From the sequence record PP355091.1: 64,000 bases of DNA; one strand, 5' to 3'. Both the position numbers and the translations under genes were made by a program. Below, piece after piece: positions 5,422-57,432 of this stretch (positions within the stretch are counted from its first letter, which is position 1; every line of letters begins with the position of its first letter). Under the pieces are notes generated by a model that worked only from the letters and a program-made list of their open reading frames with translations, was not told the DNA's origin and searched no databases. Origin of the DNA: Escherichia phage 235Ecol030PP.

Positions 5422-5592
5422 TACAATTTCCTCATTAATTGAACATTGGAGCGATGCGTTTCAGAAGAGTATCAGCACCTTTAGCGAATTTCCATTTTAT
5501 TCTCCAAGTTGTTTTCTATATCAGTAGTTGATATTGATATAGTACCATAATCAACTACTGATGTATATAGTTTTATGAAAAAATTTTAAACT

Positions 5593-17586: not shown

Positions 17587-18213
17587 TTAACCTCTATTCA
17601 TAAAAGCATTAAAAATTTGGTCATCAATAGAAACATTTGCTTTAGACTGTTTTTCGGATGGTAATTCATATCCACATATTACAATTTTATGATCAATATC
17701 AAAATACACAGAAGCAATATGATTAATGCTGTTTTCAGTAAAGTCTAAATCAACATCAATATCTTTTTGACCACAGCCCAAAGGATAAATAATGCGAGTA
17801 ATTCGATTATCTTTAACAAAGATTCCACCGACATACTCTGTGCTGCGTTTAAAGTCTACACGCCGACGAAATGAAAAATATTCAGGCTCTTTATGAGCTC
17901 GGCTCATAGGGCATAACGAATAACTAGAATAAGAGATGTCAAATCCTACGCCTTCAATATGAACTAAATTGTCATGATTAAACCAATTATAATCATATGC
18001 CAAGTCCATTAGATTGTCATATGTGAAAGGCACCGGATTAACATCATTGGTCACAAGCATATAATTAGCAACTGCTATAATTTCATTATTTTTAACGAAT
18101 ACAAACCGTGATTGATGCGAATGGCCTGGACCTGCGTTTTCACGATTAATGATATAACACTGGGCACCTTTATATTTGTATGTATCTTTGCACTTGTGCA
18201 TTTGATAAAGCAT
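17587..18213 (-). CDS. hypothetical protein, 208 aa (position of T4 61.2)
   Basis: ORF; its first 39 codons and 5' leader are duplicated in tandem upstream. Confidence 0.7.
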   Translation of the reverse strand: MLYQMHKCKDTYKYKGAQCYIINRENAGPGHSHQSRFVFVKNNEIIAVANYMLVTNDVNPVPFTYDNLMDLAYDYNWFNHDNLVHIEGVGFDISYSSYSLCPMSRAHKEPEYFSFRRRVDFKRSTEYVGGIFVKDNRITRIIYPLGCGQKDIDVDLDFTENSINHIASVYFDIDHKIVICGYELPSEKQSKANVSIDDQIFNAFMNRG

Positions 18214-18377
18214 TATTCACCTACCACTTCAGCGATCGAATACAAACCGTGATTGATGCGAATGGCCTGGACCTGCGTTTTCACGATTAATGATATAACA
18301 CTGGGCACCTTTATATTTGTATGTATCTTTGCACTTGTGCATTTGATAAAGCATTATTCACCTACCACTTCAGCGAT
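18096..18377. repeat. perfect tandem direct repeat, 2 x 141 bp (18096-18236 and 18237-18377)
   Basis: the two copies are identical base-for-base on inspection. Confidence 0.95.
18238..18354 (-). pseudogene. truncated duplicate of the 5' end of the 208-aa gene (41-codon reading frame)
   Basis: inside repeat copy 2; ATG overlaps the stop of the spackle-like gene; frame closes after 41 codons at the repeat junction. Confidence 0.6.
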
Positions 18378-18647: not shown

Positions 18648-18676
18648 GATTAATCTCCTCAGTAGTTTATGTTTAT

Positions 18677-18706
18677 ATAGTATCTCAATTTCCAATAAAA
18701 GTAAAC
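18677..18706 (-). promoter_or_regulatory. T4-type early promoter
   Basis: GTTTAC-18nt-TACTAT. Confidence 0.55.
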
Positions 18707-18708
18707 AG

Positions 18709-18966
18709 TTATTTTAAAACTTTTGCGTAATCACATGTTACAAACTGTTTCTCTAGCTTAACGATCTTACGAAAATACCTTTTACACTGACGAATCTGCC
18801 GCTTCGTAGGACGTACAACAAACTTAATAAATTCCACTCGACCAGATGGAGGACTTTCTTCTGGTGGAATATCTAGCACCAATTCCCACGTATCTGCAAT
18901 AAGTGCTTTGAATTGAGTATTTTTCCTGACGTTATACGGAGTAGGTTTAAATAAAACAATATGCAT
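18709..18966 (-). CDS. hypothetical basic protein, 85 aa (position of T4 61.4)
   Basis: ORF; positional assignment only. Confidence 0.55.
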   Translation of the reverse strand: MHIVLFKPTPYNVRKNTQFKALIADTWELVLDIPPEESPPSGRVEFIKFVVRPTKRQIRQCKRYFRKIVKLEKQFVTCDYAKVLK

Positions 18967-25218: not shown

Positions 25219-25467
25219 TCAAATGCAAGTAGTAATTACTCCAGTAGTGCTTATGCAGGTATTACCCATTTGCACACCTAAAGATCCATTTGTATTCACA
25301 TGAAGATTATCATCAATTTTAACTGATATTTTACCATTAGTGTGAATAACGGTGCTAGATTTAATCACAGGTTGAGTATCATTTTCAACACTAACAAATG
25401 GAACTGCTGCTAATGCAACTAAACACACTGCTAAGCAACCATAAACAATTTTCATTTCATTCTCCAA
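25219..25467 (-). CDS. secreted/membrane-anchored small protein, 82 aa
   Basis: N-terminal signal-like hydrophobic segment; early promoter and conserved leader upstream. Confidence 0.55.
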   Translation of the reverse strand: MENEMKIVYGCLAVCLVALAAVPFVSVENDTQPVIKSSTVIHTNGKISVKIDDNLHVNTNGSLGVQMGNTCISTTGVITTCI

Positions 25468-25492
25468 ATCCGTATCAGTAGTTGATAGTTGT

Positions 25493-25522
25493 ATAGTACC
25501 ATAGAAGAACAGGGATGTAAAC
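25493..25522 (-). promoter_or_regulatory. T4-type early promoter with conserved leader
   Basis: GTTTAC-18nt-TGGTACTAT, followed by ACAACTATCAACTAC leader. Confidence 0.7.
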
Positions 25523-25595
25523 AGTTTTGTGAAAAAATTTTTAGGGAATCCAAAGGGTCCAGAATCATCTCTTTTTCATAAGTATAGATTTATAT

Positions 25596-41310: not shown

Positions 41311-42139
41311 TTATATATTTCCAATTATAGCCTTCAACACTTTTACGTTCGCCATTTAAACATTTTAAAATATTTCCTTTGCTAGAAATATTAAAATATT
41401 TTGCTGCGTCTGGTATATAATTAAATGTTTTTAAAAGAACACCATCTTTATATGCGCCAAATAAATTAAGAGTATATTTTTCTCGAAGACGTTGATGTTT
41501 CCTTTTCATAACCTCAGGATTTGCATACGCCAACCTCAATGAATTTCTATGTTTTTCTTTTACTTCAGGTTTTTGCATTGCTAACTTAGTTAGCCTGGAA
41601 ATTTTATTTCTAACTTCGTCAGTTTTCATTGCATTTGACAAATTTAATAAAGTTTTATTTCTAACTTCAGGTTTTTGCATTGCTAACTTAGTTAGTTCTC
41701 TATGTCTTTTTCTAAAATCGTCATCCTTCCATATATTTTTCGATAATTTTGACATAGAGCGGTGAAATAATTCCTTTTCACCGGAATACAATTTAAGAAT
41801 TTCATCCAATTCATCTGTATTAAATCTATCGGTATTCGAGTTTATCATTCTATGAAAGGCATAACACATTTTACTATTACTTGTTTTAGCTAAATAGTAA
41901 TGAGCTAACGCGTGGTCATAATATGACAAATTAACAATATTCCATTTATCTGTTTTATATTCAGGAAATATAGATTTGGGAAGCACGTGATGTGCTTCCG
42001 TTTTTCCTTTTATTTTAGGATTATTATAATTTTTTGTTATCAAATCAACATATGACAATAGTAAATCATTATTTTCTTCAAATATTAAAGATAATTTATC
42101 ATTCACAAAATCGCAAGGATAAAATCTATCATAATTCAT
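41300..42139 (-). CDS. HNH homing endonuclease (Mob-like), 279 aa, with NUMOD3 repeats
   Basis: AHHVLP...N...DHALAH HNH motif; duplicated LTKLAMQKPEV units; first 13 codons mimic the nrdG N-terminus. Confidence 0.75.
   Translation of the reverse strand: MNYDRFYPCDFVNDKLSLIFEENNDLLLSYVDLITKNYNNPKIKGKTEAHHVLPKSIFPEYKTDKWNIVNLSYYDHALAHYYLAKTSNSKMCYAFHRMINSNTDRFNTDELDEILKLYSGEKELFHRSMSKLSKNIWKDDDFRKRHRELTKLAMQKPEVRNKTLLNLSNAMKTDEVRNKISRLTKLAMQKPEVKEKHRNSLRLAYANPEVMKRKHQRLREKYTLNLFGAYKDGVLLKTFNYIPDAAKYFNISSKGNILKCLNGERKSVEGYNWKYINEL
41566..41700. repeat. direct repeat of ~27 nt within the HNH gene (NUMOD3 repeat units)
   Basis: aggtttttgcattgctaacttagttag occurs twice about 103 nt apart. Confidence 0.8.
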
Positions 42140-43441: not shown

Positions 43442-44470
43442 TCATGCTCGTTTATATGAAACAACAAAATTTGGATAGTCCATAGATATGCAACGTTCTT
43501 TTATAGTGCTAGGATGAAAATTTAGCGCTTTAGCTGCTTCTATATAAGACGTATACTTAATACCGTCAACAACCACATATTCAGGAACTTTATGAATAGT
43601 AGTCTTAATACTCAAAACAAGAGGATGAGTTTCGACTTCACTTTCAGTGCAATTTAAATATTCCGCTGCTTTTTTAAAACTTCTAAAAGTTTTATTTTTA
43701 AGCTTTATCGATACTTGTTTTTTACTTTTTCGACTATTGATATTATTTTGCACATGTTCCTTAGATCTTCCGTTTTTAGCATAATATTCAGCTACAGAAG
43801 ATTTTATATTGTTTTTATGAGATTCGGATAACACTTTACCCTTATGAGCATCTCTTAATTTTTGAATATGTTCTTCAGTATCCGGATGCTTATAAAACTT
43901 TTTACCGCCTATGGATTTATTTAAACATTTTTTGCTATAAAAATATTTACGTATGACCTCTTCTTCATGTTTTAATGCATCTTTATAACTATCAAATGTT
44001 TTTAAAATTATCCATTTAGTAGGTGTATCAGTTTTTAAGCGTTCATTTATATACTTAGATGACGTTGTGTAAGTTTTCCAGTTTGTGGGCTTGTTTTTAA
44101 TTGTTCTAAATTTTTTATAACCGATATAAATGTCGCCATTAGAAAACTTAACTAAGTATGTAAATGCGTCTTTATCTTTTATTTTAGTACAACGTCTTTT
44201 TATCCATTTCATTGTTTCACCTCGTATTCATAAGATAATCTTATTTATACAAGATGACTGCTGCATGTCGCCATGCAGATTAGACTATATCTTCATCTTT
44301 CGATGCCGGCCGTTTCGAATAGCATTAGCTTCTATTCTACACCGCTACATTCATCACGGTTAGTCGTTAGGCATTTAGTTCAAAAGAACATTTAGCACGG
44401 GATTGTCTACTAGAGAGGTTCCCCGTTTAGACCGGTTTTACATGAGCCTGAATTAAATTAACTCATACGC
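43431..44470 (-). mobile_element. group I intron in nrdD carrying a GIY-YIG endonuclease ORF (boundaries approximate)
   Basis: nrdD frame interrupted; conserved group I core strings (AAGATATAGTC S-element-like, AAACGGGGAAC) at 44213-44452. Confidence 0.75.
43442..44212 (-). CDS. intron-encoded GIY-YIG homing endonuclease (I-TevII-like), 256 aa
   Basis: GDIYIGYKK GIY-YIG motif; located inside the nrdD intron. Confidence 0.75.
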   Translation of the reverse strand: MKWIKRRCTKIKDKDAFTYLVKFSNGDIYIGYKKFRTIKNKPTNWKTYTTSSKYINERLKTDTPTKWIILKTFDSYKDALKHEEEVIRKYFYSKKCLNKSIGGKKFYKHPDTEEHIQKLRDAHKGKVLSESHKNNIKSSVAEYYAKNGRSKEHVQNNINSRKSKKQVSIKLKNKTFRSFKKAAEYLNCTESEVETHPLVLSIKTTIHKVPEYVVVDGIKYTSYIEAAKALNFHPSTIKERCISMDYPNFVVSYKRA

Positions 44471-44998
44471 CTGAAACGCGTCATAGACATCTTTTTCTGT
44501 TTTAGATTGAGCATAATTCAACGCATCAGCGATTTGCCATTTTTCTGCATCCTCAATATGTTTTGCATAGGTGCGTTTAACATAAGGAGAAAGTACTTTA
44601 TCTACATTCGCAAAAGTCGTTCCGCCATATTGATGGGAAGCAACCTGTGCAGTAATTTGTGCCATAATTGCAGTAGCAACGCCAATTGATTTAGGAGTTT
44701 CAATCTGTGCATTACCGAGCTTAAATCCGTTCTCAAGCATTCCTTTTAAATCTACTAAACAGCAATTAGTAAATGGAAGAGCAGGGGAATAATCAATATC
44801 GTGCACGTGAATAATTCCGCTTTCATGCGCTTTCATAATAAAAGACGGGACCATATTTTTGGCAATGTGTTTAGACACAATACCAGCCATAAGGTCCCGT
44901 TGAGTTGGAAAAACACGAGAATCTTTATTAGCATTCTCGTTTAAAAGGTCTTTATTAGTTTTATGAATCAATCCTTCAATTTCTTTTTCAATTGTCAT
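44456..44998 (-). CDS. nrdD: NrdD exon 1 (3' limit approximate; in-frame stop at 44453-44455 lies inside the intron)
   Basis: N-terminal region of class III RNR; frame runs into intron sequence. Confidence 0.75.
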
Positions 44999-45468
44999 TT
45001 TAAACTCTTTCTAAGCTGCTTCTTAAATGAAGCTATTAACTGTGTTTTGGTGTCAGATTCATTATATTCAAATCCTCTTTGAAGCATCTCGGCCATCATT
45101 TCCTCTTTTCCTAAACGAGAAAATTCCTTTGATTTATCTCCAACAAAGTTAGGGTGAATATTATTTTGGGTGTAATCGGATTTTAAATAAGTAAGTAAAT
45201 TTTCTAACCATTCAAGATAATCAACACCTTGTCCCTTTAAGCCAGAACGATTAAATTTATGCTTCATTTGACCTTCTGCGGCATTGCAGAGATTACAAAG
45301 CAATCCACGCACCTTTCCTGCTTTTGGTCCATTTAATTCATGGTCATGGTCGAGGTGATTAGCTTGAACATCAGGATTTAGTTCTCGTTGGCAAATTAAG
45401 CATTTACCGTTTTGTGCATTATAAAATTTCTGTTTTTCTTCTTTATATAATTTGCCAGTCAATAACAT
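44995..45468 (-). CDS. 49: endonuclease VII (Holliday junction resolvase), 157 aa
   Basis: CxxC...HLDHDH...CNLCN zinc/His-Me motifs; size 157 aa. Confidence 0.85.
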   Translation of the reverse strand: MLLTGKLYKEEKQKFYNAQNGKCLICQRELNPDVQANHLDHDHELNGPKAGKVRGLLCNLCNAAEGQMKHKFNRSGLKGQGVDYLEWLENLLTYLKSDYTQNNIHPNFVGDKSKEFSRLGKEEMMAEMLQRGFEYNESDTKTQLIASFKKQLRKSLK

Positions 45469-45507
45469 AATAAAACCCTTACCTTAAATAGATAAGGGTA
45501 TTTATTA

Positions 45508-45684
45508 TTTTCAAGTATTGTAAAACATTCGATGCAATCGTTTATACTGTCGAATCATCTTTTTAGTAGGACGAGAATAGGTTCCTACGCAAGTGGTCAT
45601 ATGAGGGTCCGTAGAATGTCCTTTAATAAAAAGTTTCCAAACCTTACCGCCATTTAACTTTTCAGTATAAACCAATTCGGTTTT
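45508..45684 (-). CDS. small protein, 58 aa, sharing its C-terminal 15 residues with the upstream gene
   Basis: hand-translated; ends ...IRQYKRLHRMFYNT. Confidence 0.4.
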
Positions 45685-45723
45685 CATTAAAATGCCTTGT
45701 CAGAAAAAGAATTTTGAGTTTTT

Positions 45724-46227
45724 TCAAGTATTGTAAAACATTTGATGCAATCGCTTATATTGCCGAATCTTTTGGTCAGAAAAAGAAATTTGATTTTCAA
45801 GCCATTCAATGTATTCTGCGGCAGCTTGCATCAGGTTACCTTCATAGCCATCGTTATTTTCTTGTGCAGCTAATTTAGCTAATGCGTATGAAATACGTTC
45901 ACCTTGAAAATCGGCTTTAGGCTTCTGAACAACTTGATTAGTTTGCTCTACAACTTCTTCAATTTCGCCATTTTCTACTGATTCAGTATTCCACAAACAC
46001 CAATACGTAATTGGCTTATCGTAGATGTTAATAATCTTTCCATCAGAAAGTTCAATTTCAATAATTCCAGTATCAGGTTCTATATCATCTTCACATTCTT
46101 TTGCAAGTTCACGAACTTTAAAGACAGTACCTGCACTAAGTTCCGGCCAGTAATTACATAGCCCTGTATCAGCACGATTAATTCTAAACCACTTATCTAC
46201 TGTAATCATGTCCCATCTCCATATCAA
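45724..46227 (-). CDS. hypothetical protein, 167 aa
   Basis: ORF; C-terminus ...IRQYKRLHQMFYNT. Confidence 0.55.
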   Translation of the reverse strand: MIWRWDMITVDKWFRINRADTGLCNYWPELSAGTVFKVRELAKECEDDIEPDTGIIEIELSDGKIINIYDKPITYWCLWNTESVENGEIEEVVEQTNQVVQKPKADFQGERISYALAKLAAQENNDGYEGNLMQAAAEYIEWLENQISFSDQKIRQYKRLHQMFYNT

Positions 46228-46504
46228 TTAAGTCATTTATCATTGGTTCATTATACACCGTTTCTTCATCAGTGTAAACCGGTTCTTCCGGCTCTGGCTC
46301 TACAGTTTCCCATCTAGCCGCCCACCAAGGTTTAACCCCGAAGCTTATTAAGTTCTTCATAATCAATCCAGGATTCTAATCCTGATGGCAAATCAGATTC
46401 AATTTCCCAAAGAAGCTCTTCAATTTTCTGAAGACGATCTAGTTCTTCGGCTGGAATAGTAACCATTGATGGAGTTCTTGATACACTAATATCGTAAATC
46501 ATAT

Positions 46505-50891: not shown

Positions 50892-51419
50892 TTATGCGAG
50901 TACCGTCTTTAACCGTTCTTCAAACTTCCGAAGAGTATTTTGGCGTTCAGCTCTTTGCTTTTTGTAAGTTTCAATACGCTCTGAAATGAGAGTGTATCGT
51001 TCATTTACTGATTCTTTCATAAAATCAGGAATTTCACGAGAAGCTTTAATCTCGTCAAATTTATCAATAACAGCTTGCTCTTCAGCAATTAAGTTATCAT
51101 ACATCAAAATATCTTTCTTGATGAACTCAATATCTTCTTGAGTTACACGAGATAATTTAGATGCTTTATCCTTTTTGTACTGTTCGTTAGTATCACGAGA
51201 CCAGTGTAATGTACGATTTTTATTCGTATTCTTGTAAATTTCTACAATACCAATCTCATCAATAATAACGATCCAATTCCAACGGGATTTGTAAATTTGT
51301 CCTCCATCAACCGTGATTTCACCTCCGATTGAGATGTCATTAAAGAACTTGCTTTGTGCTTCAGATTTAAATTTACCATCGTTGTAATTTACCAGGTTGA
51401 AAATATCTTTAGCGTTCAT
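50892..51419 (-). CDS. hypothetical protein, ~175 aa (start trimmed)
   Basis: SD GGAGGAA before ATG; upstream track extension is a translated promoter. Confidence 0.6.
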   Translation of the reverse strand: MNAKDIFNLVNYNDGKFKSEAQSKFFNDISIGGEITVDGGQIYKSRWNWIVIIDEIGIVEIYKNTNKNRTLHWSRDTNEQYKKDKASKLSRVTQEDIEFIKKDILMYDNLIAEEQAVIDKFDEIKASREIPDFMKESVNERYTLISERIETYKKQRAERQNTLRKFEERLKTVLA

Positions 51420-51447
51420 TTTGTGTTCCTCCGTAGTTGATAGTTGT

Positions 51448-51477
51448 ATAGTACCACAGAGGAACGGTCTTGTAAAC
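51448..51477 (-). promoter_or_regulatory. T4-type early promoter with conserved leader
   Basis: GTTTAC-18nt-TGGTACTAT. Confidence 0.7.
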
Positions 51478-51479
51478 AA

Positions 51480-51794
51480 CTAAAAGAAACTTCTTTCACA
51501 ATTTTTTCCACTGAACCACGCACTCACTGCTTTCTTAGTCTCAGGAGCAGTGTTATCCATAAACCATTCAAAGGCAGCCTTTTTATGATTCTGGAGGGCT
51601 TCTCGGGCTTTAATCTGCTCACGGTCTATTAACACTAACATATGAGCCTTTCTTGTCACCAGGGGCTTCTTATGATTTTTTGAATACTCCCAATCATTTG
51701 TCCATCGCATCGTTGTTGCGAACTGAAATACTGCTTCTTTAATTTTAGTTTCGTAAATTTCACGAGCCTTTGAGTATAACATCATTACCTCCAT
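51480..51794 (-). CDS. hypothetical protein, 104 aa
   Basis: ORF. Confidence 0.5.
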   Translation of the reverse strand: MEVMMLYSKAREIYETKIKEAVFQFATTMRWTNDWEYSKNHKKPLVTRKAHMLVLIDREQIKAREALQNHKKAAFEWFMDNTAPETKKAVSAWFSGKNCERSFF

Positions 51795-53332: not shown

Positions 53333-53369
53333 TTTGTTTTTCCGTTTAAGTGTTTGTTTTGATAGTTGT

Positions 53370-53399
53370 ATAGTACCATAAAGCTTTATGCTTGTAAAC
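53370..53399 (-). promoter_or_regulatory. T4-type early promoter with conserved leader
   Basis: GTTTAC-18nt-TGGTACTAT. Confidence 0.7.
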
Positions 53400-53420
53400 C
53401 ACTTTGTGAAAAAATTTTTG

Positions 53421-57175: not shown

Positions 57176-57363
57176 TATTCCACCACATATGAAAGAGAGA
57201 ATATTGCACACGCCATGTGAGTTGCAACTTCATCACACATATTATAACGTTTCTTAAGAAGTTCTACAAGTTCTTCACTAGTAACTTCATCCATGTCGAC
57301 GAAAAAATCACCATTAATGATGACGTAGATATTTCCTTCTTGATTGAGTGCTTCAATTTTCAT
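57175..57363 (-). CDS. small protein, ~62 aa (start trimmed)
   Basis: SD GAGGAG before ATG; early promoter upstream. Confidence 0.5.
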
Positions 57364-57391
57364 GATGTTCTCCTCTTTATCCGATAGTTGT

Positions 57392-57421
57392 ATAGTACCA
57401 CAGCTCAAACGGAAAGTAAAC
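57392..57421 (-). promoter_or_regulatory. T4-type early promoter with conserved leader
   Basis: GTTTAC-18nt-TGGTACTAT. Confidence 0.7.
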
Positions 57422-57432
57422 CGGTAAAATGA

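What the first reader, a model, noticed from the sequence alone, without database searches (positions are those of the whole stretch)
45501..45780. Two adjacent genes end with the same 15-residue tail and share ~55 bp of 3' sequence
The 167-aa gene ends ...QKIRQYKRLHQMFYNT and the following 58-aa ORF ends ...KMIRQYKRLHRMFYNT. The corresponding DNA (45721-45778 and 45510-45567) is about 90% identical and includes the stop and flanking bases. This is either a segmental duplication of a gene end or a conserved C-terminal tag/3' regulatory element reused by neighbouring genes.
Basis: seen in the sequence. Interest (0 to 1): 0.45.

Follow-up and report, generated by a model that had tools for sequence, protein, structure and literature searches.

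The report
Lon-inhibitor gene borrowed its neighbour's tail
In this T4-like phage the last 15 residues of the Lon-protease inhibitor Pin are a captured copy of the C-terminal helix of the small neighbouring gene (family DUF7279), so the repeat records a gene fusion followed by a recombination; it is an ordinary kind of phage genome evolution, but it shows that the textbook T4 PinA protein is a chimera.

Summary
The repeat is real. About 50 nt are 92% identical (45507-45556 and 45720-45769, minus-strand genes, 213 nt apart).

The window is a Tequatrovirus. The "167-aa gene" is pin (161 aa from its ATG). The 58-aa ORF is an intact, selected gene of Pfam family DUF7279 (dN/dS 0.1-0.2 across four genera).

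The tail belongs to DUF7279, not to Pin. It is that family's most conserved segment and a predicted C-terminal basic helix. It lies outside Pin's Inhibitor_I24 domain, and every Pin outside Tequatrovirus lacks it.

Tequatroviruses such as HY01 keep the older layout: Pin ends ...SFSDRAF*, and its stop overlaps the DUF7279 ATG. T4 and T6 carry a 137-nt deletion that fuses pin in frame to the last 15 DUF7279 codons.

The window (with about 113 phage records) has the fused pin, then a 34-nt fossil of the old pin end that still supplies the ribosome-binding site, then a complete DUF7279 gene.

I found no evidence for a regulatory DNA or RNA element. Whether the tail does anything on Pin is untested.

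Interest is modest: a new instance of a known process.

The parts
45724..46209 (-). pin (PinA, inhibitor of host Lon protease), 161 aa plus stop. It is a chimera: residues 1-146 are Pin proper and residues 147-161 are derived from DUF7279.
   Evidence: ORF. Annotated as Pin in D5505, T4 and T6. Pfam Inhibitor_I24 PF10465, E=1.6e-48, covers residues 3-140 only.
45720..45771 (-). Repeat copy B: the captured tail of Pin (K147-T161, KIRQYKRLHQMFYNT), the stop codon at 45724-45726, and AAAA.
   Evidence: Pin residues 146-160 match PHROG 3272 (the small-ORF family) at positions 44-58. A DUF7279 profile hits Pin's last 16 residues at E=3e-5.
45775..45801 (-). Pin's own ...WLENQISFSD codons (CTTGAAAATCAAATTTCTTTTTCTGAC). 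The fossil below is homologous to this stretch, and the stretch contains the CTTGAAA heptamer that is also found at the tail's stop codon.
45687..45720 (-). Fossil of the ancestral pin 3' end: AACTCAAAATTCTTTTTCTGACAAGGCATTTTAA, which reads ...TQNSFSDKAF*. Its stop overlaps the DUF7279 ATG (TAATG), and it contains the Shine-Dalgarno-like AAGG at 45695-45698. It now serves as the leader and ribosome-binding site of the 58-aa gene.
   Evidence: Alignment with the unfused Tequatroviruses HY01 and EPIMAM01. Pins of distant genera end ...FSDKAF* or ...KSF*, and one shows the same GATAAGGCATTCTGATG junction.
45511..45687 (-). The 58-aa DUF7279 gene (PHROG 3272; RB69ORF087c-like), intact.
   Evidence: Pfam PF23945, E=3e-17, covers the whole profile including the tail. 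Homologues occur in Tequatro-, Dhaka-, Gapriver- and Mosigvirus. dN/dS is 0.10-0.19. AlphaFold model: three strands plus helix 42-56, pLDDT 82.
45507..45558 (-). Repeat copy A: the native tail of DUF7279 (M44-T58), the stop codon at 45511-45513, and AAAA.
   Evidence: R39, P40, T41, K42, I45, R46, K49, R50, H52, R53 and F55 are invariant in the family.
45475..45506 (-). Late-promoter-like AATAAATA and a 10-bp hairpin just upstream of gene 49. This element follows copy A only and is not part of the repeat.
   Evidence: Terminator-like site. The fold has z = -4.7. The homologous site in SA35RD is annotated as a late promoter.
44995..45468 (-). Gene 49 (endonuclease VII), the downstream anchor common to all three layouts.
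46250..46278 (-). Early-promoter-like site TTTACA-17-TATAAT (11/12) upstream of pin. It is a consensus match only.
18709..18966 (-). An 85-aa gp61.4-like ORF, a second full DUF7279-family gene in the window. It carries a diverged version of the tail motif (RPTKRQIRQCKRYFRK).
   Evidence: hmmsearch E=1e-6. Pfam DUF7279, E=3e-20. Named 61.4 in some phage records.

Best explanation
The 15-residue tail is the C-terminal basic helix of the small DUF7279 protein.

In the older layout (type A), pin ends ...SFSD(R/K)AF* and its stop overlaps the ATG of the DUF7279 gene. That gene sits immediately upstream of the gene 49 hairpin.

In one Tequatrovirus lineage a 137-nt deletion removed pin's last two codons, its stop codon, and DUF7279 codons 1-43. 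DUF7279 lies in the +2 frame relative to pin, so the deletion joined pin in frame to DUF7279 codons 44-58. This fused layout (type F) is the 161-aa PinA of T4 and T6.

The window has a third layout (type FD). It most probably arose by an illegitimate crossover, within or next to a shared CTTGAAA/A-run, between the stop region of a fused pin and the ...WLE... codons of an unfused genome. The product is the fused pin, then a 34-nt fossil of the old pin end, then a whole DUF7279 gene. Both genes therefore end with the same tail.

Shown here: the homology, the deletion end points, the distribution of the three layouts, selection on DUF7279, and relaxed conservation of the fused copy. Inferred: the order of events, and that the tail on Pin is a tolerated appendage rather than a required tag.

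One consequence follows. The two 50-nt direct repeats bracket a 213-nt unit that holds the complete small gene and its ribosome-binding site. Homologous recombination between the repeats can delete that unit, converting FD to F, or reinsert it.
For: 1. Domain assignment. Inhibitor_I24 ends at Pin residue 140. DUF7279 covers the small ORF through its tail. Pin residues 146-160 hit the small-ORF PHROG and my DUF7279 profile.

2. Distribution of the tail.
- Pins of Mosigvirus end ...EYLERRLS*.
- The Gaprivervirus Pin remnant ends ...YSDEAF*.
- More distant Pins end ...FSDKAF...SSKSF or ...NAKSF. None has the tail.
- Every DUF7279 member has it, including a 45%-identical paralogue upstream of Mosigvirus pin and gp61.4.

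3. The DNA alignment of the three Tequatrovirus layouts shows the exact 137-nt relation between HY01/EPIMAM01 and T4/T6. It also shows the extra tail plus fossil in the window and in EC.W14-2.

4. The fused tails share CAA TAT AAG with the HY01-type native tail. The window's own native tail has CAG TAT AAA instead. This fits a fusion in an HY01-like genome followed by later re-acquisition of a more divergent DUF7279 copy. The window's DUF7279 body is only 90-93% identical to the type A copies.

5. DUF7279 has dN/dS of 0.10-0.19 overall. Its tail shows no non-synonymous change among the free Tequatrovirus copies. The fused tails vary at family-invariant positions: R53Q in all, H52N in some, R46Q in T4.

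6. Census. The FD junction is present in 113 phage records. The DUF7279 body is present in 185 records. Pin protein clusters are 161 aa (fused) or 148 aa (unfused, all ending SFSDRAF or SFSDRAL).

7. The same kind of event recurred. A Mosigvirus-like contig has Pin ...EYLERR|FHRDFYNVY, produced by a deletion between ACGTTT microhomologies, with the DUF7279 gene gone.

8. Among four FD genomes the 305-nt cassette is 98.4-99.7% identical, while the pin bodies are 92-96% identical.
Against: - The order of events is inferred by parsimony, not shown. FD could instead have come from a tandem duplication of the pin-end-to-tail segment followed by an internal deletion, and F could derive from FD by recombination between the repeats.
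- The FD junction is not a clean join at the heptamer. It has six A's where the parental sequences have three or four.
- No extant unfused donor carrying ...DKAF* together with the window-type DUF7279 body was identified.
- The T4-type deletion has no obvious microhomology at its ends.
- The census rests on BLAST coverage counts, and I read the sequence of only about a dozen loci.
- No truncated fused tails were seen among roughly 660 sequences of 161-aa Pin. Some constraint on the tail therefore cannot be excluded.
Confidence: 0.85

Rival explanations
1. The tail is a portable functional peptide, such as a Lon-binding or degron-like helix or a partner-binding helix. It has been selected on both proteins, and Pin and DUF7279 work together.
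For: - Fusions between Pin and a DUF7279 gene arose at least three times: the T4-type fusion, the Mosigvirus-like P0038, and a full-length N-terminal DUF7279-Pin fusion (P0037) seen in two metagenomes.
- The two genes are adjacent, and their stop and start codons overlap, in several genera.
- The tail is strongly basic (+4 to +7), whereas Pin proper is very acidic (pI 4.2).
- The fused form is the commonest Pin, and it is the form shown to inhibit Lon in vitro (PMC8835725).
- No truncated tails were seen.
Against: - Fused tails have replaced residues that are invariant in free DUF7279 (R53Q, H52N, R46Q), and nearly all variation among them is non-synonymous.
- Pins without the tail persist in Tequatrovirus and in all other genera.
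- DUF7279 occurs without pin in Dhakavirus, and pin occurs without a downstream DUF7279.
- AlphaFold gives the tail on Pin low confidence (pLDDT 49-66).
- Adjacent genes on the same strand fuse easily whether or not they are functionally linked.
Confidence: 0.15
2. The repeat is a cis-acting DNA or RNA element (terminator, promoter, translational operator or recombination cassette like a PeSL) that is reused after neighbouring genes.
For: - The repeat includes the stop codon and four bases beyond it.
- Copy A lies 7 nt upstream of the gene 49 late-promoter-like sequence and hairpin.
- Repeat-flanked small ORFs are typical of T4-type hyperplastic regions (PMC2839356).
Against: - Neither copy folds better than shuffled sequence (z = -0.27 and 0.01), and the two copies fold differently.
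- The hairpin and the late-promoter-like sequence follow copy A only.
- No sigma-70-like promoter was found in the repeat.
- Rfam gives nothing above threshold.
- Synonymous divergence in the tail (dS 0.2-1.25) is similar to that in the rest of the gene. Conservation is therefore at the protein level.
Confidence: 0.03
3. The tail is ancestral to Pin. The 58-aa ORF is a degenerate partial duplicate of pin's 3' end.
For: The 58-aa ORF is short and absent from T4. A piece of pin-like sequence lies just upstream of it.
Against: - The ORF is a curated Pfam family in its own right and is intact in four genera under purifying selection.
- Its body has no similarity to Pin.
- Pins outside Tequatrovirus lack the tail.
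Confidence: 0.02

Closest known systems
T4 PinA (MEROPS/Pfam Inhibitor_I24, PF10465), inhibitor of E. coli Lon
   Same: The window's 161-aa protein is about 97% identical to the pins of T4 and T6. It has the same domain and the same fused C-terminus.
   Different: Nothing differs in the protein itself. What is new is the reading that its last 15 residues are not part of the Pin family but a captured fragment of DUF7279. Natural 148-aa and 136-144-aa Pins lack them.
DUF7279 (PF23945) / PHROG 3272; RB69ORF087c; paralogue T4 gp61.4 (PHROG 2375)
   Same: The 58-aa ORF matches the whole profile, tail included. Family members are small basic proteins of T4-like enterobacterial phages.
   Different: No function is known and no paper mentions the family. 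The family is very small, with 9 representatives at 50% clustering. The only fold matches are generic sheet-plus-helix matches resembling part of a PH domain.
PeSL-mediated modular shuffling in T4-type hyperplastic regions (Arbiol et al. 2010, PMC2839356; Comeau et al. 2014, PMC4122927)
   Same: A small non-essential ORF is present in some close relatives and absent in others, and it is bracketed by direct repeats that recombination could use to excise or insert it.
   Different: The repeats here are coding sequence (a protein tail), not promoter plus stem-loop cassettes. The first steps were a deletion and an illegitimate join, not an exchange between regulatory cassettes.
Gene fusion by deletion between adjacent same-strand genes ('Rosetta stone' fusions); microhomology-mediated deletions and duplications in T-even phages (named from my own knowledge, not from a paper read here)
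   Same: There is an in-frame fusion after loss of the intergenic junction. ACGTTT microhomology lies at the independent Mosigvirus-like deletion. TCG microhomology lies at an unrelated 141-nt tandem duplication in this same window.
   Different: Only a 15-residue helix of the partner is retained, rather than a whole domain. A later event restored the complete partner gene, which created the visible repeat.

Membership tests
PinA / Inhibitor_I24 (PF10465) | Match to the family profile above the gathering score | tested here: met
   164.5 bits against a cut-off of 27; residues 3-140. PHROG 2167, 'inhibitor of host Lon protease', E=3e-65.
PinA / Inhibitor_I24 (PF10465) | Binds and inhibits host Lon protease | not testable with these tools
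   Shown in vitro for T4 PinA (UniProt P07068), which has the same fused layout (PMC8835725). Not tested for this phage or for tail-less Pins.
PinA / Inhibitor_I24 (PF10465) | The C-terminal 15 residues belong to the family domain | tested here: not met
   The profile ends at residue 140. All Pins from other genera and the 148-aa Tequatrovirus Pins lack the tail.
DUF7279 (PF23945) | Match to the family profile above the gathering score, covering the RPTK...basic-helix motif | tested here: met
   58-aa ORF: 62.7 bits against 24.5, profile positions 1-53 of 53. 85-aa gp61.4-like ORF: 72.2 bits.
DUF7279 (PF23945) | Real protein-coding gene (purifying selection, conserved reading frame) | tested here: met
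   dN/dS 0.10-0.19 against HY01, EPIMAM01, QL01, VR26 and SA35RD. A full-length ORF is present in 425 phage records.
PeSL regulatory cassette (T4-type phages) | The repeat unit comprises a strong sigma-70-like early promoter plus a stem-loop terminator | tested here: not met
   No promoter-like site lies in either copy. Neither copy has significant structure. The hairpin follows copy A only.
C-terminal degron or interaction tag | The tail is necessary or sufficient for binding to, or degradation by, a protease or partner | not testable with these tools
   There is only indirect evidence: relaxed conservation of the fused copy and a low-confidence helix on Pin.
Segmental duplication by recombination | The copies are homologous at the nucleotide level, including synonymous sites, with identifiable junctions | tested here: met
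   45/49 nt identical. Junctions are defined against the unfused and fused relatives.

The most novel reading that the evidence does not exclude
The DUF7279 C-terminal basic helix is the working end of a small host-directed protein that acts with, or on the same target as, Pin (Lon or a Lon-dependent defence). On this reading, Pin has captured that helix repeatedly (T4-type, the Mosigvirus-like P0038, and the full-length fusion P0037) because the helix improves or alters Lon inhibition. T4 PinA would then be a two-part inhibitor, and DUF7279/gp61.4 would be a new family of anti-host factors.
Probability: 0.12. Interest if true: 0.6.

Novelty: new member of a known kind. Interest (0 to 1): 0.33.

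Why it matters
T4 PinA is the reference phage inhibitor of Lon. It is used as a reagent and is cited as an anti-toxin-antitoxin defence factor (PMC8835725; PMC10286901).

Its last 15 residues turn out to be foreign to the Pin family, and nature supplies matched variants: 161-aa fused, 148-aa unfused, and fused plus the free small gene. These give a ready-made experiment on what the C-terminus does.

The finding also warns against treating the tail as part of the inhibitor fold. It gives the uncharacterised DUF7279/gp61.4 family its first contextual link.

The locus is also a clean, fully traceable example of how T-even phages make and unmake small genes by deletion, illegitimate joining and repeat-mediated exchange.

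Tried and rejected
- IMG/VR scans, one with Pin and one with a degenerate pin DNA pattern, gave only six loci each. That was too few for a census, so the census relies on BLAST counts in the phage collection.
- I could not count type F directly. The tool joins nearby pieces, so coverage counts do not separate F from A or FD. My estimate is about 260-340 of roughly 514 Tequatrovirus-level records.
- A profile search of 1.8 billion representative proteins found only 9 DUF7279 relatives and no annotated ones.
- No solved structure exists for either family.
- The primary PinA papers (Hilliard 1998, Skorupski 1988) and the T4 genome review were not held. I therefore make no claim about published C-terminal truncations.
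- Rfam gave one sub-threshold chance hit, ohsC at 25.5 bits against a gathering score of 50.
- I considered and rejected four ideas: convergence (the nucleotide identity includes synonymous sites), assembly artefact (113 independent records), a PeSL cassette, and a pin paralogue remnant.

Full report
**What the window is.** The region is from a Tequatrovirus (a T4-like phage). A 1.5-kb stretch around the finding is 99% identical to Escherichia phage D5505 and 95-99% identical to several hundred T-even genomes. All genes here are on the minus strand. In order of transcription they are nrdC, three small ORFs, pin (45724-46209), a 58-aa ORF (45511-45687), gene 49 / endonuclease VII (44995-45468), and nrdD. 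The annotated Pin starts at the ATG at 46209 and has 161 residues.

**The observation.** The two proteins end QKIRQYKRLHQMFYNT and KMIRQYKRLHRMFYNT. The DNA copies are 213 nt apart. The core, from ATTCG through the stop plus AAAA, is 45/49 identical. Three of the four differences are synonymous. About 1e-11 such pairs are expected by chance in the window. Only these two close copies exist in the window.

**Which gene owns the tail.**
- Pfam places the Inhibitor_I24 (PinA) domain at Pin residues 3-140.
- The 58-aa ORF matches DUF7279 (PF23945) over the whole profile, tail included.
- Pin residues 146-160 hit the small-ORF family PHROG 3272 at positions 44-58. They also hit a DUF7279 profile that I built (E=3e-5).
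- In an alignment of DUF7279 proteins the segment RPTKK-IR--KR-HR-F is the most conserved part.
- AlphaFold models the protein as three strands followed by helix 42-56. The best model has pLDDT 82, but the other four are poor.
- On Pin the tail is modelled as a low-confidence continuation of the last helix (pLDDT 49-66).

**Relatives.**
- In Mosigvirus SA35RD, Pin ends ...EYIEYLERRLS* with no tail. The downstream 59-aa ORF ends RPTKRMIRQYKRFHRDFYNVY. A second paralogue upstream of pin ends RPTKRQLRKAKRSHRNFYREY.
- In Gaprivervirus VR26 a Pin remnant ends ...WLEAQLRYSDEAF*, and the small ORF keeps the tail.
- Dhakavirus QL01 has the small ORF but no pin.
- More distant Pins end ...FSSKSF...FNAKSF or ...FSDKAF. 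They are followed by other small genes or directly by gene 49.
- The tail is therefore native to DUF7279 and derived in Pin.

**Three layouts in Tequatrovirus (alignment).**
- *Type A (HY01, EPIMAM01).* Pin has 148 aa and ends ...WLETQISFSDRAF*. Its stop overlaps the DUF7279 ATG (TAATG).
- *Type F (T4, T6).* The sequence runs ...TCTGACCGA|ATGATT.... A 137-nt deletion has removed pin's last two codons (A, F), its stop, and DUF7279 codons 1-43. DUF7279 is in the +2 frame relative to pin and 137 = 3x45+2, so pin now reads into DUF7279 codons 44-58. This gives the 161-aa PinA. The stop, the late-promoter-like AATAAATA and the gene 49 hairpin are unchanged.
- *Type FD (window, D5505, EC.W14-2, one IMG/VR contig).* The fused pin with its tail and stop is followed by AACTCAAAATTCTTTTTCTGACAAGGCATTTTAATG. 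This string is 32/36 identical to the type A pin end and reads ...TQNSFSDKAF*. A complete DUF7279 gene follows.
- The fossil keeps the AAGG Shine-Dalgarno-like sequence 7 nt before the ATG. A very distant Pin has the same context (GATAAGGCATTCTGATG).

**Order of events (inferred).** One deletion converts A to F, and that is the simplest route to the fused pin. The fused tails share the synonymous variants CAA TAT AAG with the HY01-type native tail. The window's native tail has CAG TAT AAA instead. The window-type DUF7279 body is only 90-93% identical to the type A copies. This suggests that FD arose when a fused genome recombined with a more divergent unfused genome.

The join lies at a heptamer, CTTGAAA, that is present both at the tail's stop (AATA**CTTGAAA**A) and in pin's WLE codons (GG**CTTGAAA**CTC). 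It is not a clean join, because the product has six A's. The alternative route is a tandem duplication of the pin-end-to-tail segment, then an internal deletion, with F arising from FD by repeat recombination. I cannot exclude it, and I give the proposed order about 0.6.

**Census.**
- The FD-specific junction (92 nt) is fully covered in 113 phage records.
- The DUF7279 body is present in 185 records:
  - 115 at 95% identity or more, which are essentially the FD genomes;
  - 58 at 90-95% (type A);
  - 12 Dhakavirus.
- The rest of the roughly 514 Tequatrovirus-level records must be type F. This is an approximate figure of 260-340.
- In the protein collection, Pin clusters are 161 aa (about 660 member sequences) or 148 aa (about 44 members, all ending SFSDRAF or SFSDRAL). 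Pins from other genera are 136-144 aa.
- Among four FD genomes the 305-nt cassette is 98.4-99.7% identical while the pin bodies are 92-96% identical. This suggests a single origin followed by spread through recombination.

**Is the small ORF a gene?** Yes. dN/dS against five relatives is 0.10-0.19. Within Tequatrovirus the native tail shows two synonymous changes and no non-synonymous change. The remnant is the 34-nt fossil of pin.

**Is the tail on Pin functional?** This is unknown. Fused tails have Q at the family-invariant R53 in all cases, N at H52 in some, and Q at R46 in T4. Almost all variation among them is non-synonymous. That argues the helix is no longer doing its DUF7279 job. On the other hand, no truncated versions were seen, and the fused form is the Lon inhibitor characterised in vitro (PMC8835725). 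The tail is basic (+4) on a very acidic protein (pI 4.2 without it).

**Recurrent fusions.** A Mosigvirus-like contig encodes Pin ...EYLERR|FHRDFYNVY. It arose by a deletion between ACGTTT microhomologies that removed DUF7279. Two independent metagenome contigs carry a 1-nt deletion that fuses the upstream DUF7279 paralogue, at full length, to the N-terminus of Pin. This could reflect a functional link. It could equally reflect how easily adjacent genes on the same strand fuse.

**Regulatory-element rival.** Neither tail copy folds better than shuffled sequence (z = -0.27 and 0.01), and the two copies fold differently. The strong hairpin (z = -4.7) lies downstream of copy A only. No promoter-like site falls in the repeat. 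Rfam gives nothing above threshold. Synonymous divergence in the tail equals that of the rest of the gene. I reject this reading.

**Consequence of the repeat.** The two 50-nt direct repeats (longest exact run 21 nt) bracket a 213-nt unit containing the fossil leader, the DUF7279 body and one tail. Recombination between them would give exactly the T6-type layout. A circular product could reinsert into any fused pin. This resembles the PeSL-bracketed modules of T4-type phages (PMC2839356), but with coding repeats instead of promoter-terminator cassettes. It is inferred, not shown.

**Further copies.** A profile search of all ORFs in the window finds one more family member, the 85-aa gp61.4-like ORF at 18709-18966. 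It carries RPTKRQIRQCKRYFRK. T4 itself therefore has a DUF7279 paralogue even though it lost the one next to pin.

**Verdict.** The explanation is a gene-end capture (a fusion by deletion) followed by re-acquisition of the donor gene. The process is well known in phage genomes. The specific point that T4-type PinA is a Pin-DUF7279 chimera did not appear in anything I could search: no paper mentions DUF7279, and the primary PinA papers were not available to me.

Noticed in passing
window 18096-18377: A perfect tandem duplication of 141 nt x 2 (100% identical) spans the stop of spackle (sp) and the first 39 codons of gene 61.2. It is bounded by TCG microhomology. T4 and all 12 best-matching phages have a single copy (430 nt in the record against 571 nt in the query). 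It is either a very recent private duplication or an assembly artefact. It is the same kind of event proposed for the pin locus.
   Followed up: partly
window 18709-18966 (-): The 85-aa gp61.4-like ORF is a DUF7279 family member (Pfam E=3e-20). The uncharacterised T4 gene 61.4, next to sp and dmd, therefore belongs to the same small-protein family as the ORF next to pin.
   Followed up: yes
L018 2001-2576; L019 1510-2085: Two independent metagenome contigs encode a 191-aa protein in which the upstream DUF7279 paralogue is fused at full length to the N-terminus of a Mosigvirus-type Pin. The cause is a 1-nt deletion that removes the stop (TATTGATATG becomes TATGATATG).
   Followed up: partly
L017 2501-2926: A Mosigvirus-like contig has an independent C-terminal Pin/DUF7279 fusion (...EYLERRFHRDFYNVY). 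It was made by a deletion between ACGTTT repeats. The downstream DUF7279 gene is lost and the upstream paralogue is kept.
   Followed up: yes
L026 1946-2230; L028 1926-2030 and 2071-3150; L007 1232-1501: The slot between pin and gene 49 is variable across T4-like phages. It holds a 94-aa or 89-aa acidic protein, a 34-aa hydrophobic peptide plus a SegE-like GIY-YIG endonuclease, or nothing.
   Followed up: partly
window 5519-5587, 18657-18725, 25460-25541, 51415-51485, 53350-53418, 57359-57429: Families of roughly 70-nt dispersed repeats (61-80% identical) share GTTGATAGTTGTATAGTACCA...TGTAAAC. They look like T4 early-promoter regions read on the opposite strand.
   Followed up: no
window 41552-41593 and 41654-41695: A 42-nt direct repeat, 90% identical, with a spacing of 102 nt.
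   Followed up: no
window 43442-44212 (-): A 256-aa GIY-YIG ORF corresponds to I-TevII as annotated in T4, and it lies inside nrdD. The closest relative, D5505, is annotated with an uninterrupted nrdD, so the presence of the intron and endonuclease appears to differ between near-identical phages.
   Followed up: no
phage collection: The DUF7279 body matched 186 places in 185 records, so one record carries two copies. It could be a tandem-duplication intermediate or terminal redundancy. I did not identify the record.
   Followed up: no
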